Assembly: GCA_016748015.1 (NCBI GenBank)
Contig: JAAOMT010000175.1
Coordinates: 40,056 to 104,055 of the forward strand
DNA length: 64,000 nt
Source: Geosiphon pyriformis uo1
Taxonomy: Eukaryota; Fungi; Glomeromycota
Direction: 5' to 3'
Part shown: piece by piece, positions 483 to 63,667 of the stretch
Numbering within the stretch: position 1 is the stretch's first letter
Layout of the letters: every line of letters begins with the position of its first letter
Position numbers and translations under genes: made by a program
The notes under the pieces: generated by a model
Seen by the model: the letters and a program-made list of their open reading frames with translations, nothing else
Told to the model about the DNA's origin: nothing
The model's database searches: none

Positions 483-1329
483 TGTTACTCATAAAAAGAA
501 ACAGATATAGCAGACCAATAAGAGAATAGTATTTAGCACATGAGCACATTGCTCAGCAATATAGAGCAATATCAGAAATCATGGCACATTGCTCAGCAAT
601 GTGGAGCAATGTCAGAAAACATGGCACATTGCTTAGCAATGTAGAGCAATATTAGAAAATTAGAGCACATTGCTCAGCAATATGAGCATTGCTCAAGAAA
701 TCATAGCACATTGCTCAGAAATAAGAGCAATCTCATAGAACATCAATTATGTATATATAGCAGTAGCATTAGAAGTAGAAAAAGCAGAATTCTGTAGTTA
801 GAAATCTTCTATTTTCACAAATATTAAATAAATAAATTATTTACCATTCAAATCCACTCTTTATTATCAACACACCATGTTGATAGCAATTGATATTTAA
901 CCATACTAGAACAATAGCTCTTGATCACAGCTATTGACAAATACTAACTTGCATATTGTCTTGGCTTATTTCTTTATTTTATTTTCTTTATTTTTTTATT
1001 ACTAACTCTATTGAGGATTAATGTGTGGAGTACTGACATCAGGATATAGCACTGGTAAAAGACCCAGGAATAAGAATAGGACACTTGATTGAGGATAGCT
1101 TACCAGGAAGAATACTGGCCATCAAGCTGAGAAAGAAATTAACAAAACTGTGGTTTTGGGAAGCTATTAATAAAACCATTGCAATTGAATTTCTGTTCAT
1201 TATACAAAAGACTCAACCAAAACCTTCAGATAACAATATCTTCAGATATTCCCAACAACATTATATTAATTGAGCACCAAGTTATGAGTTTGTTATTTGA
1301 TTTGAGACCCCAAATAATCACTTGTAACA
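483..1329 (+). repeat. 5' LTR of A (847 bp)
   Basis: TGTTACTC...TGTAACA; direct repeat of 17415-18162. Confidence 0.95.
541..735 (+). repeat. U3 tandem array of about 40-bp units with palindromic core ATTGCTCAGCAAT
   Basis: gcacattgctcagcaat...gagcaat...cagaaa repeated about 5 times; fewer copies in the 3' LTR. Confidence 0.85.
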
Positions 1330-1341
1330 TTTGGTGCTCCC
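1330..1341 (+). promoter_or_regulatory. Primer-binding site of A (TTTGGTGCTCCC)
   Basis: TGG motif 2 nt after the LTR-terminal CA; the same TTTGGTGCTC core follows the 5' LTRs of D and F, and a decayed version follows E. Confidence 0.85.
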
Positions 1342-3150
1342 TGTAAAGTATAATCTTACAGAAAACCAGCACCAACAACCTCATCCAAAAGTGGCAGAAT
1401 CAGAAAGCATAGGAGCAAACCATCTAGGATTCACAAAATTCTTATTTCAACATTATTGTCAACACCTAAGATTAAATTATAATCACATATCAGCAGAATT
1501 AGCCTTCAATTTCTATGTTAACAAGAGAATTGCATATTTGTTGAATACATTAGTAAATATTGAATCAGCAAGAGAAACTTTTTACAATGAATTAATTCAA
1601 AACACCAGCCTACCAACAAATCATAATTTCACATCCATCATTACTAAGATCAACAAAAAAATAAAATATCATACACAGCAAAGATACCCAATTACTTACA
1701 CAAGTAAAGGTAAAGAAAAACTACAAACACCAACAGTAATACCTCAAAGAATACAACCACCTACTTGGAAGAAAACAAAGGTTGAATCACCAACCAACTC
1801 ATTATACTATTATACATCTGAAAGTGCCATCAATATCTCATCAACAGGTGTGTCCACATCAAACATGACATCAGCATTTAGACAATTCCCATTTCAAAGC
1901 AAACAAAGGAAAGAAGACTTATTAGAACCATATGATACATATTTTGAAGGATTTAAATCATGATTGCCAATACCATCAGGATTTTGATCACTGCCACCTC
2001 AACCAGATTTCAAAACTATGAGTCCTTAAGAAGTCACAGAATTGGAAGGAGAACAGGAAGAAGAAGAAGAAGAAGAAGAAGAAGAAGAATCTGAGGATCA
2101 GAAATTTACTTACCAAAATCCAATCCCAAAAAACCTGGAATTTAAAACTCCAAACGTTCAAACTCTGAATTTTCAAGCTCAGCCAGATCAGAATGATCGA
2201 AACCCTGAGACAATTAATCAGCTGAACTTACCTTCAAATATTGTCATCAATCAACCACACATTGATCCAATAGCACAACCACTACTACAGCAACTTATCC
2301 AGCAACCAATTCAACATCCACAACAACAGCTTTAACTACCAATACAACAACAACCAATCATGCCAATGGCTTTTGCACCAATAGCAAAAATTGAGAAGTT
2401 CACAGGCAAAGAGGACGACGCCTAAGCATAGATTAATAATGTTGCCAAAGCCATCACCATAAACAATTGGGATGACGCAAGAACAATGCAAGTTATCCCA
2501 TATTTCCTAAAGGATACCACCGACTCATGGTATCATAGCTTGGCCCAGAAACCCCAAAACTTCAATGCATTTAAAATTGACTTCCTAAGATATTTCAGTG
2601 ATAATAACAGCATCAACTGCCTGGCAAGTATTTTTACCACCATAAAACAAGAGGACACAGAAGCAGTTACCACTTACTTAGGATGCTTCCACAGAAATCT
2701 GCACCAAATTCAAGCTATCCAAGCTGATTACTTTACAGCATCACAAATCTTAAATCAGTTCATCAGAGGCTTACACAATAGCATTCTTCAACGAGTACAT
2801 CCAATGCATCTGGTAGACCTTTCTACTGCAGTCACTTATGCTAGAGATTTTGAAGCTGCCGAGTTAGAAGCCAACTACGCCCAAGCTGTGAATCTAGTAA
2901 TGAATAGATCATCTGACTTGGATTCTAAACTAAAACAATTCAGTGATTCCATTAATCAGAAATTAGAGAAATACTTAACTGACAATTGCCCAATCTATTA
3001 ACCTCCACAATGACACAATAATCAAGGAAATGCCAATCATTTCCAAAATTAGTCGTGTCTTTCAATGTCCTCCAATCAGCCATGGCAGCAAGAGACACAT
3101 GTTTGCCACAACTGTGATAAACAAAAACACCTTAGAGCCAACTGCTGAGG
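1331..3150 (+). pseudogene. gag: gag of A with long N-terminal extension, poly-Glu linker, capsid-like region and zinc knuckle
   Basis: ORF pieces 1331-1963, 2042-2335 and 2486-3001; KFTGKEDDA, IKQEDTEAVTTYLGCF, LNQFIRGL; CHNCDKQKHLRANC (CX2CX4HX4C) at about 3104-3145; internal stops. Confidence 0.85.
2057..2089 (+). repeat. (GAA)n microsatellite encoding poly-Glu in gag
   Basis: About 11 consecutive GAA units. Confidence 0.9.
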
Positions 3151-5367: not shown

Positions 5368-5709
5368 GATTCAGTGATAATAATAAAGGGATCAAGCCAG
5401 AATATGCACATGATACTAATACCAGGTTTGACTTGAGATATCCAGGGAAAGATGCCATCAAATTAGAGCCACATTCACACACCTGCATTGATCTGAAAAT
5501 AGCATTGGAAATACCAGCAACAATTATGGTTCAACTAGCTTCCAGAAGTAGTTTAGCAAAAAGAGAAATTACTATAAGAGGAGGAATAATCAATGCAAGT
5601 TATGTAGAAAATATCATAACAATACTACAAAATGACTCAGAAAAGACCTATATTATAGAACCAAATGAAAAAATAGCACAGGTAATATTTTTGTCTCTGG
5701 TTAGAATAG
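5368..5709 (+). pseudogene. dut: dUTPase of A, motifs 1-4 (split by B)
   Basis: RFDLRYP (motif 1), ASRSSLA (motif 2), GGIINASYVENI (motif 3), EKIAQ (motif 4). Confidence 0.92.
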
Positions 5710-12656: not shown

Positions 12657-12685
12657 ACAATAGGAAACAAAGTGGATTTTGACAA

Positions 12686-12702
12686 CCTCACAAGAAGCAC
12701 CA
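12686..12702 (-). promoter_or_regulatory. PBS of B (TGGTGCTTCTTGTGAGG)
   Basis: 6 nt from the 5' LTR; its complement CCTCACAAGAAGCACCA resembles a tRNA 3' end (elongator Met or Ile-UAU type; not verified). Confidence 0.8.
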
Positions 12703-16765: not shown

Positions 16766-17401
16766 ATGGAAATACCAGATCATATTCACACCATAGTTCA
16801 ACAATTATTCCAGGCCTTAAATCAACAATCTTTAGACATGGAAGTTATTGTTAACAACCAAACAATTTGCTATCAAAACACCAAAAGAAAGATAAAGAAT
16901 ACACCATATTAGTGAGTACCAAAGAATAATAAAAACTGGTCAGACAACATAATAGAAAAAGTAAAAAACACTTTTGGGAAAATACTTATTATAGCACCAA
17001 CAGAAAAACTTACAAAAGAGAATTGGAAGCAATGGACAGAACAACTTCCAATATCATATTGCTACTATTAGCTAGGTCGAAAGTTGAATATTTAGAAGTT
17101 GTATATCAACAAATTCAAGAGAGTATTTAACCAAAACATAATACAGCAAATTAAAAATTTTATTGGGAAAAAAACAAACTCAACACTACATGTGAGAACA
17201 ATTTATTGACTGCACAACATATTTCAGAATTATTCAGAAATACTGTTACACTCAGACATGGAAACCATAACTATTAACCAATGGGGAAGAATGAACAATA
17301 CACAAGTAGAAAATGTGAAGAACAGAGTCGAACAAACAATACTTGAAAAAAAAGTATTAGAATTAATTCAAAATGAAGATTTCAACAGAGCTCAATATTA
17401 A
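16766..17401 (+). pseudogene. ORF3 of A (unknown function)
   Basis: Manual translation MEIPDHIHTIVQQLFQAL...YCYY*LGRKL...VRTIY*LHNIF...ITINQWGRMNNTQ...FNRAQY*; homologous to ORF3 of D and E. Confidence 0.7.
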
Positions 17402-17414: not shown

Positions 17415-18162
17415 TATTACTCATAAAAAGAAAACAGATATAGCAGACCAATAAGAGAATAGTATTTAGCATATGAGCATATTGTTCAGCAATGTAAAGC
17501 AATGTCAGAAATCATGGCACATTGATCAAAAAATCATAGCACATCACTTGGAAATGGGAGTGATCTCATAGAACATCAATTATGTATATATAGCAGTAGC
17601 ATTAGAAGTAGAAAAAGCAGAATTCTGTAGTTAAAAATCTTCTATTTTCACAAATATTGAATAAATAAATTATTTACCATCCAAATTCACTCTTCACTAT
17701 CAACACTCCATGTTGATAGCAATTAATACTTAACCATACTAAAACAATAGCTCTTGATCATGGCTATTGACAGATACTAACTTGTGTATTGCCTTGGCTT
17801 ATTTCTTGATTTTATTTTCTTGATTTTTTTATTACTAACTCTTTTGAGAATTAACATGTGGGGTATTGATGTCAGGATATAGCACTGGTAAAAGACCCAG
17901 GAATAAGGGTAGGACACTCAATTGAGGATAGCTTACCAGCAAGAATACCGGCCATCAAGCTAAGAAAGAAATTGATGAAACTATGGTTTTAGGAAGCTAT
18001 GGATAAAACCATTGCAATTGAATCTCTGTTCATTATACAAAAGACTCAACCAAAATCTTCAGATAACAATACCTTCAGATATTTCCAACAACATTATATC
18101 AATTGAGCACCAAGTTATGGGTTTGTTATTTGATTTGAGACCCCAAATAATCATTTGTAACA
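17415..18162 (+). repeat. 3' LTR of A (748 bp; initial TG mutated to TA)
   Basis: Repeat of 483-1329 with fewer U3 repeat units. Confidence 0.95.
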
Positions 18163-26704: not shown

Positions 26705-28100
26705 TTAATCTTGTTTCATTCTTAAAAAGCTATCAACATTAGTGTATAGTTTTTCTGGTTTGTAGTGTACAATATATTTGTAGTTCATTAGGAAATTATT
26801 CCATTAAGACTGTTTGGTATTTTGTTCAGTCTTCTTTTTATTGAGCCATTTGAAACCAATATTGTCAGTTATAATGTCAAATTTTTTTCTATTCTTTAGA
26901 TATTGTTGAAAATATTTAATAGCCCAAATAACTGTAATAGCTTCTAATTTAGTTGAACCATATTTGAGTTCTGTTAGTTTGAGTGTTCTGCTGACATAGA
27001 CAATGACTTGCTCTTGGCTATTTTCATCTAATTGTGATAAAATGGCACTGAATGCTATATGTAAGGCATCAGTGGCTAGTTAGAATCATTTGTTGAAGTC
27101 TGGGCAAGCAAGAACTGAGACTGTTGTTAATTTTGTTTTGAAAGTATTAAAGACTTTTTGTTGTTCTTTAGTCCATTGATATGGCATGTTTTTGTTGATA
27201 AAATAATTGAGTGGTTTGGCAATTTCTGAGAATTCTTTTATGAATTTTCGATAGTAGGAGACTAATCTTACAAATCTTCATAGCTCTGTGGTATTTTTGG
27301 GAATTTGAAAGTTTTTGACAGCACTGATTGTTCCAGGATTTGGTTTGACTCCATCTTTGCTAATAATGTGTCTAAAAAAGATTAAACTTGTTTTTTCAAA
27401 GTGACATTTCTTAATGTTCAACTTTAATCTTGCTTTCCATAATCGTTAAAAAACTTCTCACAAGTGAATAAAATGAGCTTCAAAGCTTGGGAAGTATACA
27501 TCAGTGTTATCAAAATAGACAACTACTGATTGTCACAAGAGTCTTTTATATACAACATTCATGAGTTATTGAAATGTTGTTGGTGCATTGCAAAGGCCAA
27601 AAAGCATAATATTGAATTTATAGTTTTCTTCTTGAGTGGTAAATGCTGTTTTGGGTCGATCTTTTGGATCTATTTTGACTTGTCAGTATCTACTTTCCAA
27701 GTCTAAAGTTGAGAAGAACTTGGCTTTTCTTAAAGTGTCTAACATGTTATCAATTCTTGGAAGAGGGTAGGCATTTCCAATTGTGACACTATTCAATTGT
27801 CAATAGTTAACACAAAATCTGATTTTTTCATTTTTCTTTTTGATAAGAACTACTAATAAGGCCTATGCACTTCTTAATGGTTGAATCAATCCATTATTGA
27901 GCATTTTTTGGACTTCTTCTCTGATGAATTGGTGGCTGGCAGGTGGTACTTGATAAGCTTGTTGTCATTTTGGTAGAACATCTTCTGTGTGGATCTGGTG
28001 TTGAACAATATCAGTTTTTCCAAGATAATTGTTGTCTTTTGCAAATATATTTGCAAATTCAGCTATCAGTTGTTTCAATTGTCTTTGTTGTTGGGGTTTT
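26705..28100 (-). pseudogene. pol: RT and RNase H of D
   Basis: RFCVNY, FGLCNAPTTFQ, VYFDN, TDAL, NVDSFLRMKQD*. Confidence 0.9.
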
Positions 28101-28199
28101 AAGAGACCCATGTTGATTTGAAAGAGTTTTTCTTCCAAAAGGTGGTAGTTTTTAGTAGTAAAAATGATGTTTGGATTTGGAAGTAGTGTATGTCTTATA

Positions 28200-28975
28200 A
28201 TTTCGATAAAATTAGAGACAATTTGAGGGTTTTTATCTTGAAAAATGTTACTGTATATGATTCCAATCTCTAATTTGTTCAATAAGACAATAGGGTAATT
28301 ATTGGGATTGTAGAATATAACTTGAAATTTTTTTATTCTTTTGGGAATATAAACATTTGGGATTAAGATTTCATGCTTTAAACAGATTTGTTTATTGGAT
28401 TCAAAAATTTGTTGGGTATTGGTGGGTTTTGAGCAAGTGTAAATTTCATAATGTTCTCCAAAAGATAAAATAATAGTTGATTGGAGAAGTTGAAGAATCT
28501 GGTGGGATTCATTTTGTGTATTGAGAGCTATGTTTACTGGTACTGTAAACCATCTAATTAAACCAAAACTTTGCATCCCTCTTTCACTTTTTCCCAATTG
28601 TTCTCTGTTGTTTACTGATTGTAAACCCGAAATGTTGATTAAAAGTAGATAAATTACTTGGACAATCTTTTCAGCATGTTCAATCCTGAATAATTTGTCT
28701 GTTTCATTCTGCAACATGATAGTAATGTCTTCAGTATATTCTGCATCTATAACTCCTCCTCTAATGTTGATTTCTTTGCTTGCTAATAATGATCTGAATG
28801 CAATTTGAATCATTGCTCTAGGTAAAATTTCAAGAGTGATTTTGAGATTGATTTTTGTCAAAGACTTTGGTTGGAGAACCAAAGTATCTTTTCCTGGGTA
28901 TCTTAGATTATATCTAACATTAATTTCGTGTGCTTTTTCTGGTTTTATTCCTTGGCCATGGTTGTCAAAATATTT
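28200..28975 (-). pseudogene. dut: dUTPase and second dUTPase-like domain of D
   Basis: YNLRYP, FRSLLA, GGVIDAEY, EKIVQ, SERGMQSFG; then IFYNPNNYPIVLLNKLEIG. Confidence 0.88.
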
Positions 28976-29099
28976 AAGTTGTAGAGGTAATTGATTTTTA
29001 AGAAAATAGATGGAAGTACTTGGTAGTTTTTCTACCAGTTCAAATATTCCAAATTCGATTTTATTTTTATCATTTTCATCTGATAGAGGAATGCTAAAA

Positions 29100-32000
29100 G
29101 CATAATATTCTAAACACCATTGGTTATCACAAGACATAATACATTCTTCACATAATTAAATGTTCAATTGCTCTAATTATTGAATTTAAGCTTCTTTGGT
29201 TGGGTATGTATAACTTGCAATTTGGTGGTAGGTTTCTACTTCATTTTTATAATCAAATCTAATTAATTCTATAGTATACTCAATATATTCAGCTTCTTTC
29301 ATTTGGTGGACATCTTTTTGTATGGCTCTATTGATTAATGCTATTGCTAAGTCAAAAATCATTTCAGCATTATGAAGATAGTGATAGAGTTTATTGAGAA
29401 TATTGTTGTATGCTGCATCAAATGGTGTTTTTTTTTTGACTTTTTCCGAAATTAATAGAGCATATTAACAAGTTTGATTACATATTCCTCCTCTCATTGC
29501 AACATCAATCCAGTTGCATTCTTTTGGTAGCATATCTCCACATATAAGGCAAGGTGTGTTGTCCTATTTTCCACTTTTTTTTGGAAATCCAAATCGTTCT
29601 CTATGGCATGTTTTGCAAAAGTAGCAGGTGCAAGTTTTATATTTCTCTTCTGAAAAAATACATGCTCTCATTGATAAAAGTTTTTTGTTGCAATTTTTGC
29701 ATTTAAGTAGAATGTAAGGTGGTTTTTTTTGTGGTTCTGGTGTAGAATACCTAACTTTTTTCTATTCTCTTAATTCTTCAAAAATCTTTTGTTCTGTTTC
29801 CTCAGCCCAATTGGATGTTGATCCAAGTGCCATATAAGTTTCAGTAAGTGGCATTTCCTTCTTTTCCTCAAATTCAAACACTAGGGCTTTTTCTAATTGT
29901 TTGTTAAAAGTGTTACACATAGCAGGTACTATGGTGTATTGTTCTTGATATGAGATTTTAAGTTCCTAAGTTTCTCAATCTAACTTTGCATTGGTCTTAA
30001 GAAGCCAATCATTTCTGATGAGAGCTTGGTATTGAGATGCATTCATGACTAGAACTTTAACTGAAATGGTGATTTCATCAATAGTGAATGAGAAATTGTC
30101 AATTTCTCCTACTGGTGTCTTTTTTATATTATTTGTTGTAATAATTACTGTTTGGGCTAGTCTGTTAACATTTTGATTAAGTTGTTGCATTAATTGGTAG
30201 ATGATAATACTTCCAGCAGATCTACTGTCTAGAATTAATCAAATGGGCTTTTTTTTTACTGTAGCTTTAGTGTATATGGCAGTAATAGCTTTTTGCTCAT
30301 TAACTGCTGCATTGCTAAGCAAGAATGGTGATTCATTGGCTTCAAATTCGAATCGAAAGATATCTGACAGGTTGGCATTTTGGGCAATTTGGGCTGATGG
30401 AATGATATTGTTAAAAGGGTTTGATCTTAATGCTATAACTTCATCTTCAAAAAGTACAGATTGTTGAAAATTCGATCTTTCAGGCATTGTAAGATAACTG
30501 GGTTGAGTGTAATAGTGATTGGGTCTTTGCTGACCAGAATTTTGAAGAACCAACTGGTTGTTTGGATTGTTTCTGTTGTTGTTATTCTGAAATTGATTTT
30601 GGGGTGTAAATTGGTTATGTTGAACCAATCTTCTGGCTGGTATTTGATATTGTTGAGTAGGTGGTGTCTGATATTGCTGAATTGGTAAAGGTTGCTGATA
30701 TTGTTACTGCATTGGTTGTGAAGCTGGTTAATAGTAACTGTTTTGATTTTGTGGTCTTGGTGAATAATAAGTTGGTGGTGGAGGTTGGTAATAAGATTGT
30801 TGTAGTGAAGAATAACATTGATTACTCCTGTTTTGTTGGTCTCTCTGTAATTTCTTGCAATCTTGTTTCCAGTATCCTGAGATTTCACAATAATAGCAAT
30901 TTTGAAATTGGTTGTTGGATGGTAATCCAAAATTGTTTTGATTGCGTTATTGTGGGGGTTGGTATCTTTGTGGTTGTTGCTGCTATTGTTGTTGATTTGT
31001 AAAGTAGCTTTCAACCTTTTTTGTGAGTTGGTTTATTTTTTTTTCAGCTGCTGAGCTGGTTTTTCCAATAGCTAGATTGACAAGTTTGGTGTGGTTTGCT
31101 TCTTCCATTGCTATTTTATAGTTTTTTGCATGTCTAATGACAGTTGCTAAGTCTTCTAAAGCATGTGGACAAACTTTTTTATGAGTTTGTCTTTTAATTT
31201 TGCTATGAACTGATTCAGAATCTGGGCATTGAAATAGTAGTTATTGGTTTCCAATTGTCAAATTTGTCTCAAAAGTTTATTGAATCTTTCAAGATAGGTC
31301 ATAACAGTTTCAGATGTTTTTTGTTTAATATTTTGAAAACAATTGTGAAGAGTGATAGAGGTGTTGTTGTCAGTGAATTGTTATAAAAAAGCATCTTTAA
31401 ATGCTTGCCAGTTTTCAAATGGTTTTTCTAAGTTTTCAAACTATTCTTCTGCAGTTCCTTGGAAAAAGTATGAGATTACTTTAAGCATTTTTGCTGTATT
31501 TCAACCATTTGCATCTCCTGCTTTCTAGACTTTATCAAGCCATTCTTGTGAACTGGTATCATTGTCTTCACCAGTGAATTCAAGAATCTTTGCAATATAA
31601 GCAGTTGTCATGTCTTCTTTATTTTTTGTGGTTTCTTCTTGTTTTGATTCAGTTTCTTTACTTTTCAAGTTTTTTGAATGATTACTTTCATTTTCCTGTA
31701 AGTAATCAATAATATTGGTGCTTGTTGATATGGATTTCTGCAGTTGAGTAGGATTTTTAGGTGACTGAAAATCTTCTGGTCTGGAAAAATGGTTAAATGG
31801 TGAATTTAGTGTTTGTAGTTAAGCAAGTAAAATTAAAAATAGTATAATAGAAAGTGGTAATTTGACACTGGTTCTTTGTTCAGGTGTTTGCAAGTATTTG
31901 ACAGTTGTCTTTGGTAGTATTGGAGTGTTTAAGGTGATTCTTGAGTATTGTTTCACTTTTTGTTTGCCTTTGTTGCTTGTTTCTGTTTTTGATTTAAAGT

Positions 32001-32327: not shown

Positions 32328-32372
32328 TTTGAAGTTGTTTTTGTTGTGTTGTTTCCATGAAAGAGCACCAAA

Positions 32373-33344
32373 TATTACTGGAGGTTTTTGGTCTTTTTTT
32401 TTGAATGTTGTTAATGTTAATTTGCTGTAAATTCACGTTCTCAGGAAGTAGTTGGACCTCCAGTAACTGAATTTATCTTCAAATTATCTCCTATAATTTG
32501 AACTGCTGGACTTATAAGTGAAATGGCCAATTTCATACCAGTTGCTTTGTGTAGTTACATTGTAGTAAATGTCAACTCTTTTCCAGGAATTGCTTGTCTA
32601 GAAGCTCACTAAAAATGTGTAGTTACTTTACTATAAAAGTCAACTCTTCTACAGAAATCTTGTTTGTAAGCTACTCTAATAATTATAATAAAAAAAGAAA
32701 GAAAAAAATAAAAAAAATGTCAAAAAAATAGAATTGTGTCAAGGAAAACGTTTTCTATTCAGGCCTGGAGTCATTAACAGTTTATTAAAATTGGTAGCTA
32801 ATCAATTTCAAAACATTAGTTGTGTTGAGGAAATTTCAAGTATAATAATCAAAGGATTTGGTTTTCGAATATTTAATTTTTATTTGAAATGTGTAAAAAG
32901 TGATTTGTTCTAATTAAGATATCTAAAGTGAAATACTATGTTAAGATACTATGAGAAGATATATTTTTTTGAAGAGAAAAGCTCTTATTTTATACAACTT
33001 GTTGTAGTACTAGTCTTTGAACTTGCACTTTTCTCTTTGCTATAATTTGGGTAAACTAAAGATATATTTTGGCAAATTACAAGTTATTTTACTAAACTAT
33101 TGATTATTTCAGCCAATTTCTATTAATTTCGGCGAATTTTAACTATGTTAAATGGTTCAGAGTATTGTGTAATTTGATCATCTTAATTTCTAGAGTACAA
33201 ATCGAATTATTGATTAAGTAATGATATTTGATAATTTGATTAAATAATAAGTAATATTCGAAATAATGATAATATATGCTAATTAATAATAGGAATTATG
33301 AGAGTAATTTTATGCTAATTAATAGTTAAATTCTACTGGTAACA
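32373..33344 (-). repeat. 5' LTR of D (972 bp)
   Basis: Followed on the minus strand by TTTGGTGCTCTT; repeat of 23464-24413. Confidence 0.93.
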
Positions 33345-34684: not shown

Positions 34685-35614
34685 TGTTACAGGTGATTAT
34701 TTGGGGTCTTAAGTCAAATAACAAATCTGTAACTTGGTGCTCAAAAGCTATTTTGCATTGTTGATGATCTGAAGGTTTTGTATCTAAAGGTTTTGTTGAA
34801 GTCCTTTGTATAATGAACAGAGATTCAATAGTTGTTTTATCCATAGCTTCTCAGACTTGCAAGTCTGTCAATTCTTTTCTCGGCTTGGTGGCTGGCAATC
34901 CTCTGGTAAGTAATTCGTATCTTCTGTACGTGTTCTACCCACTTGCAAGGGTCTTTTACCAGGCAATTCTTGACGTTAGTAATCAGCACTTTTAATCAAT
35001 TGGTTAGTGCACAATAACAAAATCACAGAAAATAAAGAAAATAAAAAAATATAAAAAAAAAAAAGAAATAAGCCAAGGCAATTTGCAAGTTAGTATTCTA
35101 TCAATAGCCATAATTAAGAGCTATTGTTCCAATATAGTTAAGTATCAGTTACTATTAACACTTCATGTTGATAGTAAAAAATGAATTTGATATAGTGAAT
35201 AATTATTTATTTGAGGATTGTGGTAACTAAGCTAAGAATTCTTGGTGTTGATTCTTTTTTTTTTTTTTTGTAATTTTAATAATTATGATTTTGCAAGTCT
35301 AATTGATTTTATGAGTCTAATTGACTCCACAAATCAATTGACTCTAAGTCCCATTGACTAATTTTCTAACTTCTGATACTACTGCTATATATACATATTT
35401 GAGATTCCTCAATTCTTCAATTTTTTATGTCAGGAATCCTGGAATTTCTGGAATTTTGCAATTCCTTTGAGAGGAATTCTAGAATTCTGGAATTTTGCGA
35501 TTCCTCATGTGAGAATCCTGCAATTCTTGGAATCCTGGAATTCCACATTTACTATATCTATCTATGATTGGCTAATTTATATGCTAATATACTTTCTATA
35601 TTTTATGAGTAACA
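34685..35614 (-). mobile_element. Solo LTR related to families A and F
   Basis: TGTTAC...TAACA; starts TGTTACTCATAAAA on the minus strand like A; flanks ATAT/ACAT. Confidence 0.88.
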
Positions 35615-39619: not shown

Positions 39620-41180
39620 TTTTATCATTTTACAAATAAAGCTCAAATGTTATCTAGCACAATACATCAAACTAAATAATCTAAACTAAGTGCAAATCAT
39701 GTATTTTTTATATGTGACCAGCTATTTGGGTCAATTAAAACAATATTATAAATTTATTTTGACAAAAACCATACAATTAGTACCAAAAAAAACTGCAAAG
39801 CTTACAAAAACCAAAATTAATGCTATATGTCTTTGCAATCTCAAGCAACTTGACAATACTAACAGAAAACAAAGACAAAAGATCACAAATATCATAAAAC
39901 ACAGAACTATTATTTGCAATTAAATTTTTTTTCTCCATAAATACTTTATACTTAGTCCTTATTAACTACATATTAACTTGATGAGCCATTTCCAAGCTTT
40001 ATACCAACTTGAAAATTTTCTTGCTGAAAGTTTTGGCACAGCCAAAAATAGAAACATTCTCTAAACACAAAGTCTTTACACAATACAATATACACAGTAT
40101 TGTTAGATGTACATACTAAAAGCAATTGTAAAACACAAAACAATGATAAATTTAAGTCTAATACAGAACTTTACTAAACAAAACATAAATCAAGTAGTTT
40201 TTTGCAAACACCAGTGTCTATTATACATTGTTATAGGATGGTTTTCTTGGTATATTTAATTGCCAATATCCCATTTTAATTGCAATCAGTTTTTTGTGAG
40301 TTCCTCAATTCTATTTGTGTGATAATATTACTGTTATACTAAAGGCTTTCTCTTTAATGTCACAATGTAAGTTATTTCTCAATTCCTGATTGTTGTATGT
40401 GTTTATGTACTCCTTCCCAGAGGCTAAACTGAAATCTACTCACTGTTTAGGGTCTTTTTTGAGGCTATCTTTGCAATTGCCTGATGTGTTTCTCTAATCT
40501 AGAAACACAGAATGTTAATAATCTTTAGTGCTTTTCTTAATTCTTACAATAAAGCTTTTATCAATTAGTAACAATGTGAATAATCTTGATCAAGGATTAT
40601 TCTTCCAAGGGATTCAGTTGATAATGATAGTTTTATTCAATAAATAATACAAGTAAGTTTCTTAACACTTTGGGTTGTGATAATTTAGTTTTAAATATTT
40701 TTTTCATTTCTTTTTGATTTAAAAATTTTTTGGAATATTTTATTTAAAAGTACAATTTAAAGTAGAGTTTGTTGGATAAATTGGATCTATTGCTTGATAA
40801 GTTATGATTTTTATTACTTTCTTGACTTTTCTTAATATTAAAGCTATTGTATATATATATGTTTGTAGTTCTATGAAAAAACACATTGTAATACTTTCTT
40901 TTTAATATTTCAACCTGGTGTTTGCTGCTATCACCAGTTGGTGTTGACTGCTATTGTGAACTGGTACTTGTCACTATTACAAGATGGTGTTTTGCTATTA
41001 TGTTAATCATTATCTTTCTAAAATTATTATTACACTATATTATGATTGAATAGTTTATATTATTTTTATGATTCTTTTGCTAAATTCTTAAACTGTAACA
41101 ACATATAAAAAAATAATCAAAAAGCTTAATTTCCTCACAATATAAACACAATACACTGGAATACTTTTTATTATATAAGT
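39620..41180 (-). mobile_element. LINE relic 3 (3' end only), interrupted by a solo LTR
   Basis: 39700-39740 is an inverted homologue of the LINE 3' UTR at 34155-34196; 41101-41180 encodes LYNKKYSSVLCLYCEE...DYFFIC (C-terminal Cys motif). Confidence 0.65.
40229..41100 (-). mobile_element. Solo LTR family G, copy 1 (872 bp)
   Basis: TGTTA...TAACA, TSD ACAT/ACAT; inverted homologue of 49515-50388. Confidence 0.9.
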
Positions 41181-44033: not shown

Positions 44034-45006
44034 TATTACCTGAGTAGAAAAACCAATCTAATATTATAAAAAAAACATGACCAAAAACATGATAACATAA
44101 AATAACACAAAATAATGTAAAAGAATACAGAATAACATATAATAATTCAGGATAACATAATACAAAACTTAATAAGATGTTATAATATAAAATAACTTAA
44201 AACATAAGATAACTAGTAATAATATAGAAAAACAAAGCAAGAACAGAAATAGTAAAGCAATAACTAACAAGAATAAAACAATTAAAAAACAATTCTATAG
44301 AACCAAGAAAAATATATAAAAATAAGTAGTTGTAGAAGTTAGAAAGACAGCCAGACAAGAATTAATTTTCTTTCCATATAGCTATTATATCTTATAAAAA
44401 TTAAAAGACTTATTTAAAACTTAAAATAATCAATATATGGTTATTTATTATTCCATATTTCTCTTAAACTAATTTCTGTTTTGTACTTTCATTTTGGAAC
44501 AAATATTTTTAGCATAAATACTTCGAAACATTAACAACTTAAACCAATTACTCTTGATCATAGTAATTGACAATACTAATTTATCTTCTTTTATTTTTAT
44601 TTTTTTTCTTTTATTCTCTCTTGTGAAGCAGCAACATAAAAAAATTGACTGTTTGGAAATAGATTTTATGATAGCCTGATAAAAAAAAGAAGCTTTTCTT
44701 AAGTTTAGATATTAACATTATCTTAGTAGCTTATTAAAAAGGCAAAAAAACACTGCTAAATCTTAATGATTGTGCATATTAGCTCAAAAAAGGTAGCTCA
44801 TATTTACAATAAAAGTTGCAAAACATGAAAGTAAAAACTCTGTGTCTTATAACCAAAAAATTTTATAGATAAATACATATTTAAAAAAAGACCTTCAGAG
44901 ACTGATAATAAGAATCAGCTGTACTACAAAGACTATTCAAAGCTTTTATTATTCGAATTAGAGCACTAAACATTATTACCATATCTTATCAAGTTTACCT
45001 GTAACA
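44034..45006 (+). repeat. 5' LTR of E
   Basis: Direct repeat of 54925-55910. Confidence 0.92.
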
Positions 45007-48000
45007 TTTGATGCTTTCTATGAGGTTATAAAAACCACAGAGACAGAACACCTCAGAAATTCACAAAAGTAGTGACTATTAGAACAGTAAAAAAAGATCA
45101 CTTACCATATAAAAAAGCATTATTTTAATATTTTAGGAAAGATTTAAGAATATCACTCAAAGCTGTTACAGCTAAAAATAATTTTTGTTAATATCTACAT
45201 GCAAAAATTAACTGTCTGCTAAGCCAAGCAACAGATATAAGAAGAATCAGAAAACAGATATATCAAAAATTATTGCCATATTCAACAGAAACCACCACCT
45301 GAGCTATAGCTAAGACTTTTTGTATAATTAACAAAAAAATCAAAGAATACATAACACAACAGTATTCTCAAGTAAAAGAAAGACAAATAGCAAAACCTAA
45401 TTTCACAGAATTTAAATTTAAATCTGAAAATACAACAGCTGCACAAAAAAAAGCCTGATCCATAGTCAACAAAAAATCAAGATTTCTTTTACCAATTATT
45501 CTGTCATATTATTAGACACTAAAAAGTAGAATCCTATTTAACCAATTCATGAAAACACAAACAAAAACTTCAAGAACTCTCAAAATCCTATACTTCTGGG
45601 ACTATAACAATAATCTTTGGACAAAATCTTTAGAAGAATATGAATCATTATTTCAGAATCTTACTTCAACAGCCAACCAACTCAGTAGAAGCATATCCTC
45701 TTAGACATTACCATTAATACAGTCCCTAGCAGAGTTAGCAATTATTTCTACAGAAAAAACAATCATCTTGCCACTTATTGGTCTTAACAAAAAGAAACAA
45801 CCAATATTAGCATTTGAAAAACAATATAGTATACCACCATTAAATCTCTCATCATTAGTAAGTCAATTATCTCTTGTTTTTTAGATAATAACTTACCAAA
45901 ATATTGCTAGATTGGAGAAATTCTCCAGTAAAGAAGATAATACATATATCTAGATAACAAAAACTAAAAAAGCAATTATTGCCAATAATTGGAATAATGA
46001 CAAAACAATTTAAGCACTGTTTTTCTTCTTAATGAAAACTGCAAACTCATGGTACTAAAGTCTCAAAAAAAAACCTACCACCTTTACTGTCTTTAAACAG
46101 GCCTTTTTATAATACTTTTGTAATTTTAACATATTTATCTGGCTACAAAATCAGTTCAACAATAAAACAAAAAAATTACAAAGCAATGACTACTTATTTT
46201 GAACAATTTAATCAAGTTTTTTGACAGATACTAGCAATTGAGAAGAATTACTATACTATAACACAAGTTTTTAATTAATTTGTCAAAAAATTAAAGAGCA
46301 GCATTCTATGATCCATGAAACCTCATTATTTGACAAACCTACAAGAAGCAGTCACTCTTGCTCATGATTTTAAGTTGGCAGAACAAAAAGCTAATCATAT
46401 TTAAGTCATTAACTTGGCCATCAATAAAATCTCAGATATTAACACTAAAATAATCCAATTAAGTAAGACATTAACTCAAAAAATTAAAAGATTCTTAGTT
46501 AGTACTACTGGAACTTATCAGCCACTTCAACAAAAAGACAACAACAACAACAGATACCAACAGCAATAGAATTATTAACAACAACAACTCTGGAGATCAG
46601 ACCTCCATAATTGTTATTACTGTTAGAAACTTAGCCATATTGTTTAGAAGTGCTAAAAAAAAATAGCAGATCAAAACAAAAGCAACTACTATTAACAACA
46701 ACTGAAATATTTTCAAACTATAGGAGCTTAATATTTTACTTCTTAATACCAACCAAGCCAGTATTTTAAGCAACTGCTCTAAAATTAGTATTTACTACTA
46801 TAAATATTGGCTCAAACAGTGTTTTAATACTAAAATCTCATATATAGCTAGTCTAGATCTTACATAATTGATTATAACCAGGGATGACAAAACAATAATA
46901 GAAACCAAACACAACTTTTAAATAGACTATTCTAACCAAACAATCATGGCAATATCTCATTATGACCAATACTAATTAAATATTCCAATTAGATTTCATA
47001 CCATGGCTTTATTAAAACTCTGAATTTTAGTAATATTACATTTTTAGAAGAAAAAAATATAAGAAAAACTCTTAATTCTTTGACTTTAAACCAAATTAAC
47101 AATATAATTCCACCTGCTACTATTATAGAAGACACTACTCTGGCTGCTATCTTCTCTTTTGACATTGATAATTTGAACACAACTAGTCTGTTTAGTGGAG
47201 CTGCCATTAATTAGAACAAACTAATCACAGCAATATATACTAATACTTAAATTAGAAACATAAACATTAAATTAATTCTCAACAGTAGATTAGCAGGTAG
47301 TATAATTATGAAACAACTTATAAATTAATTAGGTTACTAAGTAGATTGTGCTACCACTGCCTAAATCATTACTGCAGATAATAATACCAAGACTCTAATC
47401 AGAGAAATTAATAATTTTTTATTCAAAATTAGTGGAATTTAAATTCTTACCAAGGTGCTTATCATAAAAGCCACACAATATTAGACTTTTATAGAAAACA
47501 ATTGGCTAATAAAAACCAATACTACTTTAGGCTGGAATACATAAGAGCTCCAAATTACTTTTAAAAAACAACATGCTTGAATATCTACAATGTGCAAATA
47601 TTTCTAAAGAGCAATTCCAAAACAACTTTTAATTGAATTTAACAAACTGATTTCCTAATCAATCTTAGAAACATACCAGATTTCTTGGGCAAATAATTTC
47701 TGAACAGAGCTACCACCACCTTTTACTTGAGAAAAAAAAGAAAAAAAAAGAGCTGATAAGAAACATTAGGTTTTACTATCAATGTATCAAACACTACAAA
47801 CAAAAAATTAACCATACTAATCTCTGAAATTAATCTGTATTGATTGTGGAAAGAAATTATTTTTGATGGATGCATGCATTAAAAATAATAAAAAATAGCC
47901 AACCACTACCAGATATTATTGCAAATCTTGCATATTAAAAGATTTGGAGATCTGAAATAATAAAGTAAATAGAACTATATGCTATGCCTTGCATATGACA

Positions 48001-54924: not shown

Positions 54925-55910
54925 TATTACCTAAGTAAAAAAACCAATCCAAAGTCATGGAGAAAACATGACCAAAAATGTGATGTTATGAAATAACACA
55001 AAATAATACAAAAAAATACAGAATAATATGTAATAACTCAGGATAACATAATACAAAACTTAATAATATATTATAACATAAAATAACTAGTTAAAACATA
55101 GAATAACTAGTAATAATATAGAAGAATAAAGTAATAACAGAAATAGCAAAGCAATAGCTAGCAAGAACAAAACAATTAAAAAGCAATTCTATAGAACCAA
55201 GAAGAATATATAAAAATGAGTAGTTGTAGAAGTTAAAAAGACAGCCAGACAAAAATTAATTTTCTTTCTATATAGCTATTATATTTTATGAAAAATAAAA
55301 GACTTATTTAAAATTTAAAATAATTAATACATGATTATCTACTATTCTATGTTCTTTTTAAACTAATTTTTGTTTTATACTTTTATTCTGAGACAGATGT
55401 TCTTAGCATAAACACCTGAAAAAACTAATGACTTAAACCAATTGCTTTTAATCACAGTGATTGACAATACTAATTTATTTATTTTTATTTTTATTTTTAT
55501 TTTTTTTATTTTTTTTTATTCTCTTTTGTAAAGTGGCAACATAGAAAAATCAACTGTCTGAAAATAGACTTTATAATAGCCTAATAAAAAAAGGAAGTTC
55601 TCTTTAAGTTTGAATAGTAATATTATCTTGGTAGCTTACCAAAAAGACAAAAAACACTACCAGACCTTAATAACTGTGCTTGTTGGTTCAGAGAAAATAA
55701 CTCATATTTACAACAAAAGTTGTAAAACATGAAAGTAAAAATTCTGTGTCTTATAACCAAAAAACTTCACAAGTAAATACACATTCAAAGAAAGATTTTC
55801 AGAGACTGATAATAAAAATCAGCTGTATTACAAAGACCATTCAAAGCTTTTATCACTTAAATTAGAGTACCAAATATTACCACCATACTCCACTAAGTTT
55901 ACCCATAACA
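54925..55910 (+). repeat. 3' LTR of E
   Basis: Follows the PPT; ends TAACA. Confidence 0.92.
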
Positions 55911-58294
55911 GTGGCCATCAACTTTTATATTGGTGTACATTACAGTAATTGGTTTTGCTTTAAAAGTGGCTCTACTGAATAGAAGCATTTTGACTGGTTT
56001 TTTAAGTTCAAAAAAAAATAATAGTAAGTAATTTGTCTTTGGTAATGATTGCTAGTAGAATATTGTGAATAGATAATTGAGTTTGATTGAATTTTAATAG
56101 ATTAAGTATAGTGATTTCTGGAGATACTAAGAGACTTAAATAGTGTTGAACATTCAGGTTTTGGGCATAGTTAATTTCCAAATTTTGCTGTTATGATTTC
56201 AATTATTGGGCTGTTAAACTGGGAATTAGTTAATGTATTACTATCATTGATCTCCAGTTCTGACAGATTTAAGTAGTCCTCAGCCTTTGGCTTCTGTTTT
56301 GATATAAGTCTTATGGCTGGGTTTGAATTTGTTGGGATTGATAAATAACTTAGAACTGTAGTTAATATATTATTGGTACTAGAAGCTAATAAATTGGCAG
56401 TAAGTATATTGTTTGTTGCATTATTGAGGTGTAATGAAGTTAATATAGTTGATAATTTGGAGTTTAAAATTGGTGATTGGGGTTTCAATATTGATTTCCT
56501 GATCATTAATCATTTAACTGAGTGTAGCAGTTGATTTGCAAATGTCTTTGTTTACTATAATAGTAACAAATATGCATTTTTTGTTATTACTGTTAATTGG
56601 TTGATAAAAATAGATGCAGTTGATTTTGAAGATGATTTGGGTTCTCTGAATTACTGTGACATTGTAAAAATTAATAAATTGCTTAATTGTTAGTTAAATA
56701 TTCCTCTAATTTTTGATTAATAGAATTACTAAATTGTTTTAATTTGGAGTTCAAGTTAGATGATTTATTTATTACTAGATTAATGACTTAAGTGTGGTTG
56801 GCTTTCAGCTCAGCTGATTTAAAATTTTAGGCATATGTGACTGCATCTTAGAGTGTTTGTAAGTGCAATAAACATATGTATTGTAAAAAACTACTGTGTA
56901 GACCACAAATAAATTAATTTAAGATTTATAGTACAGTAAAATAATTTGCATTGATGACTTGTATTTATTACAGATTTCAATAAAAGTGTCTTAAGTAAGT
57001 AGTAACAGCTTTAGTATCTTTTTACTTAATGATAGTAAGAATATTTGCTAGACAATTGATGCTGTTATTGTTACTAAAATATCTTAGAAATTCCAGTTTA
57101 AACATATTGAAGTCTTGAGACTTCTGGATCAAGTGTTAATATCATAAGTTGGTAATATCTTAAAGAAAGTATGAAATTGTCTATAATGCTTTGGCATTGT
57201 CTTATCTATTGACTGTGATGGCTTTTTTTACATCATTGAACTAAACTTGTGTGTTGTTTTCTTTACCAGTAAATTTCTTAAGTTTTGTAATTGATGTGTA
57301 TGCCATTAATGCAAGTAATAGTTGTAGTTGTGGTTGTTGTTAAGGTTGTTGTTGTGGCAGTAGTAGTTGTAGCTGTTGTTACAGTTATTGTGGTTTGGCA
57401 ATTGGTGCAACTGATGATAAATTGATCATAATTACTGAAGGTAAGTTTTGGAGAACAATAAGAGCTGGGTTTGAATTATTTGGGTTTTGCTGGATTGAAA
57501 TAATCAGAATTTGAATTTTCAGATTTTCTGAAATCAGGTTTTGATAATTAAATTCTTAATTTTCATCTTCTTTCTCTTCTGAGTTGGTTCTTTCCCAAAG
57601 ACTAATGGCTCTAAAATTAGGTTAAGGTGGCAGTAATCAAAATCTTAATAGTATTAATAATTATAATTTAAATTCTTCAAAAAAATCACCATAAGTTTCC
57701 AATAAATCAGTTTTTTCTTGTTAGCTTTAAAACATTATTCTTGCTGATGGTGTTTTTGTTAATGATAATACAACTTCTAATAGTATATTAATAGTACTTT
57801 TAAGTATATAATAATATGATAAATGTATAAGTAAAATAATTTTTGGCTTCTTTCACATCAGTAGTTGTATTCTTCTTGGTGTTTTTGTCAGAATTTGTAG
57901 TTTTTTTTTGTTTTTGTTTGCATAGGTAATGGAAAATTTTTGTTGGGTGTAACTTTCAATTTTTCAGTTAATTTCAGTAATAGTAGAAGCAAAATTGTAA
58001 TTTAATAGTAAGTTGGTATATTGAATTAATTCAATATAGAAATTTTCTTTTGCTGATTTAGTATCTGTTGGTTTTTCTAGAAAGTAGGTAATTCTGTTAT
58101 TGACATAACAATTGAAGACTAATTTGGCTGGCCAATGATTGTTGATTAATTTTAACTATTAGTAATATTGTTGAAATAGAGATTTTGTGAATTCTAAGTA
58201 ATTTGTCCTTATTATTTCTGATTTTGCCACTGTTTCAAATAGTTGTTACTGGTGCTAATTTTTTGTTGAATTATATCTTACAGAGAGCACCAAA

Positions 58295-59024
58295 TATTAC
58301 AGGTAATTATTTAGAATCTGGAAACAAATAACAAATTTATAACTTAATGCTCAATATCTTGGTGATATTGGTAATATCTGAAGGTTTTTGTATTTAAAGA
58401 TTTTAGATGAAGTCTTTTGTATAATAGACAGAGATTTAATGATTGTTTTAATAGCTTTCTAAAATAGTTATTCCATCAATTTCTTTTTCAATATGGTGGC
58501 TGGTTTATTTTGGCAGTTATGCTCTTCTAATAAGCTATCTATTAATATATATATTCGATTTTACTCTTATTTTTGGGTTTTTTATCAAACTATTTTTAAT
58601 GTTAATATTACTCAATACTTAATCTCTTTAATTAGTAAGTAAGTTAACACAACAAAAGAAAATAAAAAAAAATAAAAAAAAAATAAGAAAATTAGTATCC
58701 TGTCAATAGCTGTAATTAAGAGCTATTGTTCCAATATAATTAAATATTAAATATTATTAACATAGAGTATTAATAATAGATGAATAATGAGAATTCTTAA
58801 TCAACTGATAATAATATGGATTTAGATGATAATAAGTATGTTTTATTGAATATTTTATAAATTTATTTCAAATATTACTGTTATATATATATAGTTAATA
58901 TTATATGAGATTTTTAAAATCCTGCAATCTTTTTAAAAAAATTCTGGAATTCCTTTGTTACTACACTTACTTCTGATTGGCTATTTTTCTAACTATATAA
59001 TATTCTTAATTTTTATAAATAATA
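58295..59024 (-). repeat. 5' LTR of F
   Basis: Adjacent to the PBS; colinear with 34685-35614; both termini show TG>TA decay. Confidence 0.8.
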
Positions 59025-62957: not shown

Positions 62958-63451
62958 NNNNNNNNNNNNNNNNNNNNNNNNNNNNNNNNNNNNNNNNNNN
63001 NNNNNNNNNNNNNNNNNNNNNNNNNNNNNNNNNNNNNNNNNNNNNNNNNNNNNNNNNNNNNNNNNNNNNNNNNNNNNNNNNNNNNNNNNNNNNNNNNNNN
63101 NNNNNNNNNNNNNNNNNNNNNNNNNNNNNNNNNNNNNNNNNNNNNNNNNNNNNNNNNNNNNNNNNNNNNNNNNNNNNNNNNNNNNNNNNNNNNNNNNNNN
63201 NNNNNNNNNNNNNNNNNNNNNNNNNNNNNNNNNNNNNNNNNNNNNNNNNNNNNNNNNNNNNNNNNNNNNNNNNNNNNNNNNNNNNNNNNNNNNNNNNNNN
63301 NNNNNNNNNNNNNNNNNNNNNNNNNNNNNNNNNNNNNNNNNNNNNNNNNNNNNNNNNNNNNNNNNNNNNNNNNNNNNNNNNNNNNNNNNNNNNNNNNNNN
63401 NNNNNNNNNNNNNNNNNNNNNNNNNNNNNNNNNNNNNNNNNNNNNNNNNNN
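62958..63451. other. Assembly gap (494 N)
   Basis: Run of N. Confidence 1.
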
Positions 63452-63667
63452 ATATACAGTTAGTGTATATCCTCCTGTAATTATGAAAAATGTAGGAAGG
63501 CTAATCTGTATCCTCCTTCTGGGTTGACCTATCGCTTGATAGTAGTGTTAGACAGAATGTTTTTGCAATCACTCTTTCCATCAATTTGCTGGTTCTTTGG
63601 AATCTAACAATAGCCAAAAATAATAAACTGACATGTTCTGCTTGCTAAAGCAATTACGTTTGTAAAG

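What the first reader, a model, noticed from the sequence alone, without database searches (positions are those of the whole stretch)
1272..1339. U5 carries an antisense copy of the element's own PBS (tRNA-mimic or self-priming hairpin)
Seen: GAGCACCAA (1272-1280) is the exact reverse complement of the PBS TTGGTGCTC (1331-1339). The stem extends inward (GTTATGAG with CTTGTAAC using G-U pairs; TTATTTG with CAAATAA). The same arrangement occurs at 34685-34742 and 58283-58352. In family E the consensus of 44960-44976 and 55864-55880 (AGAGCACCAAATRTTAC) is complementary to the LTR-end/PBS junction GTAACATTTGGTGCTC. The PBSs of A, D, E and F diverge right after TGGTGCTC, while B has a long tRNA-like PBS and no visible internal complement. 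Known: Tf1-group elements self-prime with the transcript 5' end. Inference: either a different self-priming mode using an internal ...GCACCA end, or a structural switch that gates tRNA access.
Basis: partly seen in the sequence, partly recalled or inferred. Interest (0 to 1): 0.75.

Follow-up and report, generated by a model that had tools for sequence, protein, structure and literature searches.

The report
Double-locked tRNA primer site, fungal retrotransposon
In decayed jumping genes of what is likely a soil fungus, the site where DNA copying starts matches the end of a fungal methionine tRNA and has complementary sequences on both sides, so the RNA is predicted to hide this site in hairpins until a helper protein likely opens it, rather than priming itself.

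Summary
The hairpin is real: 1272-1339 folds at -26.9 kcal/mol, z -6.8, and family E has a 17-nt equivalent. But 34685-34742 is a solo LTR with no PBS, and the PBSs do not diverge. Four of five match the 3' 18 nt of an elongator-type tRNA-Met from another eukaryote at 15-16 of 18. Most mismatches are G>A/C>T decay, and majority letters of sister copies give 17-18 of 18. The host's own tRNA was not seen. TATA and poly(A) motifs lie 440-520 nt upstream of the antisense copy, so it is likely internal U5, not a Tf1-type 5' end. No chromodomain was found. Families B and C lack the antisense copy. New here: a second antisense copy downstream in the leader (A, E, F), so 16-17 of 18 PBS bases are predicted paired. 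Best reading: tRNA-primed Ty3/gypsy elements with a PBS locked from both sides, as in HTLV-1 and MMLV; the gating role is inferred. The scan noted similar-sized LTR-end hairpins in other genomes, read there as self-priming with non-tRNA PBSs.

The parts
483..1329 (+). 5' LTR of element A (847 bp, TGTTAC...GTAACA)
   Evidence: 91% identical to 17520-18162 over 643 nt; termini and 4-bp flanks
752..759 (+). TATA-like motif, predicted promoter in U3
   Evidence: a TATA-like motif at LTR offset 148-358 in 10 of 10 LTR copies examined; inferred, no RNA data
826..836 (+). AATAAA-type poly(A) signal, predicted in R
   Evidence: AAATAAA present in 9 of 10 LTR copies, 50-180 nt after the TATA-like motif; inferred
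1272..1280 (+). Upstream (U5) antisense copy of spacer base plus PBS nt 1-8
   Evidence: exact complement of 1331-1339; pair probability 0.72-1.0 in a fold of 785-1420
1281..1328 (+). U5 terminal stem-loop: inverted copy of the LTR end plus inner helix
   Evidence: analogous terminal stems of different sequence in C (12 pairs) and B (4-5 pairs of the GTTAC core counted)
1332..1349 (+). 18-nt primer binding site, tRNA type (likely elongator tRNA-Met)
   Evidence: 15 of 18 in this copy, 17 of 18 with majority G at 1345 (65%) and 1347 (75%)
1353..1374 (+). Downstream (leader) antisense copy: 1353-1361 pairs with PBS nt 10-18; 1368-1374 can alternatively pair with PBS nt 1-7
1328..1960 (+). Open frame running from the PBS towards gag; first in-frame GTG at 1391
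   Evidence: 5 of 120 fetched proteins align to it, best 62% over 181 aa
2432..4193 (+). gag (with a CCHC-spaced motif at 3104) and protease of A
   Evidence: Pfam Retrotrans_gag, gag-asp_proteas; CCHC pattern
17415..18162 (+). 3' LTR of A, antisense copy at 18105-18113
34685..35614 (-). Solo LTR 'D' of the A lineage; antisense copy at 34742-34734; no PBS follows
58250..58352 (-). Element F junction: decayed upstream copy 58352-58344, PBS 58292-58275 (16 of 18), downstream copy 58256-58250
44960..45052 (+). Element E junction: upstream copy 44960-44976, PBS 45009-45026 (15 of 18, all 3 mismatches decay type), downstream copy 45034-45052
55864..55880 (+). Upstream copy in the 3' LTR of E
   Evidence: 15 WC + 1 GU of 17 against the majority junction
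12685..12702 (-). PBS of element B (outgroup family): same tRNA type, no U5 antisense copy
   Evidence: 15 of 18 vs tRNA-Met, 16 of 18 vs tRNA-Thr
32353..32467 (-). Element C junction: 12-bp U5 terminal stem (32467-32456 with 32385-32374), PBS with the same first 9 nt but a different 3' half; no antisense copy
   Evidence: its tRNA not found

Best explanation
These are Ty3/gypsy LTR retrotransposons with an 18-nt tRNA-type primer binding site, likely for elongator tRNA-Met, that is predicted to be locked inside the RNA by two antisense copies and would be opened by the Gag zinc knuckle or a host helicase when the tRNA is placed. Shown in sequence: (1) the PBS matches a tRNA 3' end; (2) a U5 segment complements the LTR end and PBS nt 1-8; (3) a leader segment complements PBS nt 10-18 and alternatively nt 1-7. 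Predicted by folding: both hairpins coexist and cover 16-17 of 18 PBS bases. Inferred: transcription starts about 490 nt upstream, so the U5 copy is internal; free tRNA anneals poorly, which would confine priming to the assembling particle and would shield the PBS on cytoplasmic RNA.
For: PBS vs tRNA-Met of L241/L243: A 15, B 15, E 15, F 16 of 18; 9 of these 11 mismatches are G>A or C>T. Positions 9-18 match at 7-9 of 10 (chance 2.7e-3 to 1.6e-5 each). The G letters at 1345 and 1347 were predicted from the line-up (note) before one search showed them as majority. A fuzzy scan of both strands with the tRNA-derived 18-mer hits 4 sites, all 4 directly behind LTR ends. Folding: z -6.76; opening cost 19.3-22.4 (A) and 21.1 (E with majority letters) vs control median 4.0 kcal/mol. 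The downstream copy is present in A, F and E, and in a loose-end consensus of 9 contigs on E, although A and E are only 64-67% identical in RT and IN. CCHC motif in gag of A and E and B (Pfam zf-CCHC). Precedent: HTLV-1 PBS in a stable hairpin needing Gag, RPL7 and DDX21 (PMC13366004); MMLV U5-PBS remodelled by NC (PMC11181671); Ty3 5' PBS paired intramolecularly (PMC11381356).
Against: The host's tRNA genes were not seen; the match is to tRNAs of other eukaryotes, found with a pattern built from the PBS, so the match itself is partly circular. A tRNA-Thr (L242) fits only one base worse for A, E and F and one base better for B. Position 9 of A's PBS is C in about 67% of depth, a mismatch to L241. 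The tRNA for C was not found (0 hits). No RNA data fix the start site. True covariation could not be shown for the PBS-paired arms: the PBS is fixed and variation among copies is mostly decay. B and C lack the upstream copy, so it is not needed by the whole group. Contigs laid on E's junction probably include sister families (depth triples over 44995-45024), and laying favours letters like the query. All copies in the window are broken, so function cannot be read from them.
Confidence: 0.68

Rival explanations
1. Tf1-type or internal self-priming: the U5 copy is the 5' end of the RNA (or is cut free) and primes reverse transcription.
For: Exact complementarity in the right orientation, 50-60 nt from the PBS; the scan's notes on other genomes describe hairpins of 55-83 nt read as self-primers (unchecked).
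Against: The PBS matches a tRNA beyond the paired part. B shares the PBS without the copy. TATA-like and AAATAAA motifs lie 520 and 440 nt upstream; if R lies there, an internal primer would copy only about 50 nt of U5 and no R, so first strand transfer would fail (inference from the standard scheme, PMC7175516). No chromodomain among 19 fragments after the integrase cores. Tf1/sushi and Tcn1 elements lack tRNA PBSs (PMC6317226).
Confidence: 0.08
2. The elements are tRNA-primed, but the hairpins do not gate priming: they are a U5 terminal stem (U5-IR-like) serving RT initiation, packaging or translation control, and the extension into the PBS is incidental.
For: The terminal stem is the part shared by A, C, E and B with different sequences; B and C lack the upstream extension. 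The open frame towards gag has no ATG for 183 nt after the PBS start, so leader structure could act on translation.
Against: Two separate antisense copies are kept in two lineages at 64-67% pol identity; a given 6-7-nt complement within 35 nt has a chance of about 0.005-0.007 per element.
Confidence: 0.17
3. The hairpins mainly shield the PBS from silencing by 3' tRNA fragments or other small RNAs rather than timing priming.
For: The upstream copy covers exactly the bases that pair with the CCA end; copies show heavy C>T/G>A decay (24 C>T and 12 G>A of 66 variant places), consistent with host methylation pressure (inference). tRNA-fragment silencing at PBSs is recalled from mammals.
Against: No small-RNA data; no paper found linking the two (0 hits). 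Not exclusive of the best explanation.
Confidence: 0.05
4. Chance or a neutral inverted duplication of the junction in one ancestor.
For: A 9-nt match alone is modest (37 of 2000 shuffles); A and E share an ancestor; the tree does not resolve whether they are sisters.
Against: 26-bp hairpin with 0 of 200 shuffles; kept while the enclosed loops differ wholly between A and E.
Confidence: 0.02

Closest known systems
HTLV-1 PBS hairpin (PMC13366004, passages read)
   Same: 18-nt tRNA PBS embedded in a stable hairpin that blocks annealing until Gag and host factors open it
   Different: Retrovirus, tRNA-Pro, one 10-bp stem; here a fungal retrotransposon with two antisense copies, one on each side, untested
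MMLV U5-PBS segment (Miller 2014, seen only as summarised in PMC11181671)
   Same: U5 and PBS form a structure that NC remodels to expose the PBS
   Different: Specific NC sites are defined there; none tested here
Ty3 of Saccharomyces cerevisiae (PMC11381356, passages read; best PDB match of RT, E 3.9e-53)
   Same: Ty3/gypsy organisation; tRNA-Met primer; 5' PBS tends to pair intramolecularly
   Different: Ty3 uses initiator tRNA-Met and a bipartite PBS with 8 nt at the 5' end; here a contiguous 18-nt PBS matching an elongator-type tRNA, dUTPase in pol, 4-bp TSD
Tf1/Tf2/Tj1 and the Tf1/sushi group (PMC7175516, PMC4600332, 10.1101/2022.12.06.519325, passages read)
   Same: An LTR segment complementary to the PBS
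   Different: There the segment is the first 11 nt of the RNA, the PBS is not tRNA-like, the fold is a three-duplex pretzel and integrase bears a chromodomain; here a tRNA-type PBS, a simple hairpin, likely internal position, no chromodomain found

Membership tests
Ty3/gypsy LTR retrotransposon | LTRs with TG...CA termini and target-site duplication | tested here: met
   TGTTAC...GTAACA; 4-bp flanks agree at 3 of 4 in A, B, D, E and the C-like solo LTR (read by eye), each mismatch a transition
Ty3/gypsy LTR retrotransposon | gag, PR, RT, IN order with IN after RT | tested here: met
   Pfam hits; RT best match Ty3 Gag-Pol
tRNA-primed LTR element | PBS starting TGG 0-6 nt after the 5' LTR, complementary to a tRNA 3' end over 12-18 nt | tested here: met
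   15-16 of 18 in 4 of 5 elements, 11 of 18 in C; non-host tRNA
tRNA-primed LTR element | The matching tRNA is encoded by the host | not testable with these tools
   no genome held; no tRNA gene in the window
Tf1/sushi self-priming group | LTR segment complementary to the PBS | tested here: met
Tf1/sushi self-priming group | PBS not complementary to a tRNA | tested here: not met
Tf1/sushi self-priming group | Complementary segment is the transcript 5' end | tested here: inconclusive
   motif positions argue against; no RNA run listed
Tf1/sushi self-priming group | Chromodomain at the integrase C-terminus | tested here: not met
   0 chromodomain hits in 19 fragments downstream of IN in A, B, C, E; copies are decayed, so a weak domain could be missed
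Tf1/sushi self-priming group | Three-duplex pretzel structure | tested here: not met
   MFE and ensemble give a simple hairpin plus a leader hairpin; pseudoknots not modelled
Tf1/sushi self-priming group | RNase H cleavage releases the self-primer | not testable with these tools
   needs biochemistry
Retroviral-type occluded PBS (HTLV-1, MMLV), works-like | PBS sequestered in stable intramolecular pairing | tested here: met
   in silico only:
Retroviral-type occluded PBS (HTLV-1, MMLV), works-like | Chaperone-dependent tRNA annealing | not testable with these tools
   CCHC motif present; activity untested

The most novel reading that the evidence does not exclude
A dual-priming lineage caught between tRNA priming and self-priming: it keeps a full PBS for elongator tRNA-Met and, in the exact geometry of a self-primer, an LTR copy that primes when transcription starts at about 1272. 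It would be a living intermediate for the switch between priming modes that has been proposed for LTR evolution.
Probability: 0.07. Interest if true: 0.78.

Novelty: new variant of a known kind. Interest (0 to 1): 0.36.

Why it matters
An LTR segment complementary to the PBS is often taken as a sign of self-priming. This case shows it can sit beside a full tRNA PBS, and that methylation-type decay can hide the tRNA match, which is a caution for such annotations. A two-sided lock gives a compact test of how retrotransposons time tRNA placement. If the primer is elongator tRNA-Met it would be unusual, since the yeast models use the initiator (Ty3 per PMC11381356; rarity of elongator use is recalled). 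The family dominates its host lineage: LTR elements cover 41.2% of the Geosiphon pyriformis genome (PMC11952901).

Tried and rejected
No whole genome is held, so host tRNAs and genome-wide family consensuses could not be built. Junction pattern in viral contigs: 120 loci, none with retroelement junction context, 1 of 120 with an upstream complement (a terminator-like hairpin). RT query in viral contigs: 0 of 44 candidates confirmed. Junction pattern in metagenomes: 0 hits, so cross-species covariation could not be tested. tRNA pattern in prokaryotic genomes: 0 hits. In viral contigs 114 of 120 hits were tRNA-Met genes of viral contigs: these show the geometry is that of a real tRNA but are not host tRNAs. 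tRNA for element C: 0 hits twice. My first guess of tRNA-Thr (note) was lowered, not excluded. No RNA holder listed, which is no evidence on expression. Runs X2 and X3 gave 1 and 0 laid contigs. The apparent compensatory pair 1287/1322 was rejected as covariation, since each side can arise by independent G>A and C>T decay and the 3' LTR shows the mixed G-U state. Site 60580 was rejected as a PBS: it lies next to RT sequence and fails the 18-nt scan. The RT and IN trees did not resolve A, C, E. Levin 1995 and Lin and Levin 1998 are not held. Literature searches with no relevant hit: elongator tRNA-Met primer; Glomeromycota PBS; dUTPase Ty3 fungi PBS; PBS occlusion and tRNA fragments; most subscription papers and all supplements were not searched.

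Full report
Setting. The window is 28.6% GC and consists of nested, broken Ty3/gypsy LTR retrotransposons: gag, protease, RT and integrase domains, dUTPase between protease and RT in A and C, best structural-database match Ty3 RT. Of the 120 best protein hits to the gag-protease frame of A, 119 are labelled Geosiphon pyriformis (41-73% identity) and one is the window's own, so the host is likely that fungus or a close Archaeosporales relative. LTR pairs are A (483-1329, 17415-18162), B (minus, nested in A), C (minus) and E; D and a C-like LTR are solo; F is a 5' junction of the A lineage. Copies show heavy C>T/G>A decay (36 of 66 variant places).

Observation. The hairpin at 1272-1339 is real: -26.9 kcal/mol, z -6.76, 0 of 200 shuffles; 3 of 5068 windows are as stable; it persists in a fold of 785-1420 (pair probabilities 0.72-1.0). 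F has it with two G-U pairs, and E has a 17-nt version (16 of 17 WC from the better of its two LTRs). D is a solo LTR with no PBS; what was read as its PBS is the antisense copy on the other strand. And the PBSs do not diverge.

The PBS is tRNA type. Lining up A, B, E and F suggested one 18-nt site decayed by G>A (note). Laying 4660 contigs of one DNA run on 1200-1420 then showed G as the majority at 1345 (65%) and 1347 (75%); 85 contigs on E's junction showed majority changes at 45011, 45016 and 45020 (96, 67, 90%; these probably include sister families). A pattern made of this site plus a T-arm found 3 loci in metagenomes, all 3 tRNA genes: two tRNA-Met(CAT) and one tRNA-Thr(AGT). The Met genes have a G1-C72 pair and a TTCGA loop, elongator features by recalled criteria, and L241 lies beside a eukaryote-type methyltransferase gene. 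Window copies match tRNA-Met at 15 (A), 15 (B), 15 (E), 16 (F) and 11 (C) of 18; with majority letters A gives 17 and E 18. Positions 9-18, outside the U5 pairing, match at 7-9 of 10 in the four. The search was seeded by the PBS, so the match is partly circular; what is independent is that real tRNA genes exist in exactly this register, that the majority letters were predicted first, and that the tRNA-derived 18-mer picks out 4 sites in 128 kb, all behind LTR ends. Thr remains possible, best for B. C shares only the first 9 nt and its tRNA was not found. The host tRNA was not seen.

A second lock. A, F and E carry a second antisense copy in the leader (1353-1374; 58256-58250; 45034-45052; loose-end consensus). 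In the ensemble for A, PBS nt 1-8 pair upstream (p 1.0) and nt 10-17 downstream (0.5-1.0); with majority letters nt 10-18 pair at 0.8-1.0. Without U5, the leader copy alone covers most of the PBS (-13.2 for the copy, -19.2 with majority letters). Opening the PBS costs 19.3 (A copy), 22.4 (A majority), 21.1 (E majority), 10.8 (F), 10.5 (B), 9.5 (E copy) and 5.6 (C) kcal/mol against a median of 4.0 for 180 control 18-mers. Adding 8.8 for opening the tRNA, annealing to A majority (-30.7) is roughly neutral and to E majority (-35.5) mildly favourable; these are crude sums without modifications or proteins. A and E are 64-67% identical in RT and IN, about as far apart as each is from C; B is more distant (51-56%). 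The terminal U5 stem is shared with C in a different sequence (12 pairs), but the extension onto the PBS is limited to the A lineage and E.

Against self-priming. [quoted passage not shown] Here TATA-like and AAATAAA motifs sit at LTR offsets 270 and 344 of 847 and at similar relative places in the other families (10 of 10 and 9 of 10 LTR copies), while the antisense copy is at offset 790. If these mark R, a primer freed at 1280 would copy about 50 nt with no R, and strand transfer would fail. This rests on motifs, not on RNA. No chromodomain was found in 19 post-integrase fragments.

Mechanism proposed. Shown: complementarity on both sides and a tRNA-type PBS. Predicted: both hairpins form and hide the PBS. 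Inferred: Gag's CCHC knuckle or a host helicase opens them during particle assembly, timing priming. This works like HTLV-1, whose PBS lies in a 10-bp hairpin that needs Gag, RPL7 and DDX21 (PMC13366004, passages), and MMLV U5-PBS (PMC11181671, passages; primary paper not seen). Ty3's 5' PBS also pairs intramolecularly (PMC11381356, passages). PMC3601003 (passages) proposes hairpin priming preceded tRNA priming, which frames the novel case. PMC3185550 (passages) gave background only. Five searches found no description of this arrangement or of elongator tRNA-Met priming in these fungi; the library lacks most subscription papers and no supplements were read.

Verdict. A real structure, with the self-priming reading unlikely. 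It is a new variant of a known kind: a two-sided occluded tRNA PBS in a fungal Ty3/gypsy lineage, with a likely unusual primer. Interest 0.36.

Noticed in passing
window 912-936 (+), and equivalents at about 17745, 35125 (-), 58730 (-), 44545, 55440: A second conserved U5 hairpin (8 bp) in A, D, F and E LTRs: 48 of 48 cells paired, 2 of 8 pairs with a change on both sides, 6 of 500 shuffles as high; it lies just before a TACTAAC motif.
   Followed up: partly
window 942-1016 (+) and LTR equivalents: Branch-point-like TACTAAC followed by a long U-rich tract and AG inside U5 (6 of 10 LTR copies... present in A5, A3, D, E5, E3 by pattern, and F by eye); may be the 3' end of a 5' UTR intron.
   Followed up: no
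window 1328-1960 (+), 58296-57667 (-): The frame leading towards gag is open from the PBS with no ATG for 183 nt; an in-frame GTG at 1391 is kept in F. Possible non-AUG start or spliced start.
   Followed up: partly
window 17386-17395 (+), 6393-6384 (-), 24441-24432 (-): A conserved motif containing the palindrome GAGCTC lies about 20 nt upstream of the 3' LTR, just before the polypurine tract, in A, B and C.
   Followed up: no
window 5370-5708 (+), 27968-29155 (-): dUTPase domain between protease and RT in elements A and C.
   Followed up: no
window 40231-41100 and 49515-50386: An 870-nt inverted pair at 89.6% identity with no assigned element.
   Followed up: no
window 1303-1318 (+): The loop and inner helix of A's hairpin aligns with E's antisense copy, so it may be a decayed earlier duplicate.
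   Followed up: no
window 62833-63547: Long open frames on both strands span the N gap at 62958-63451 and are artefacts of it.
   Followed up: yes
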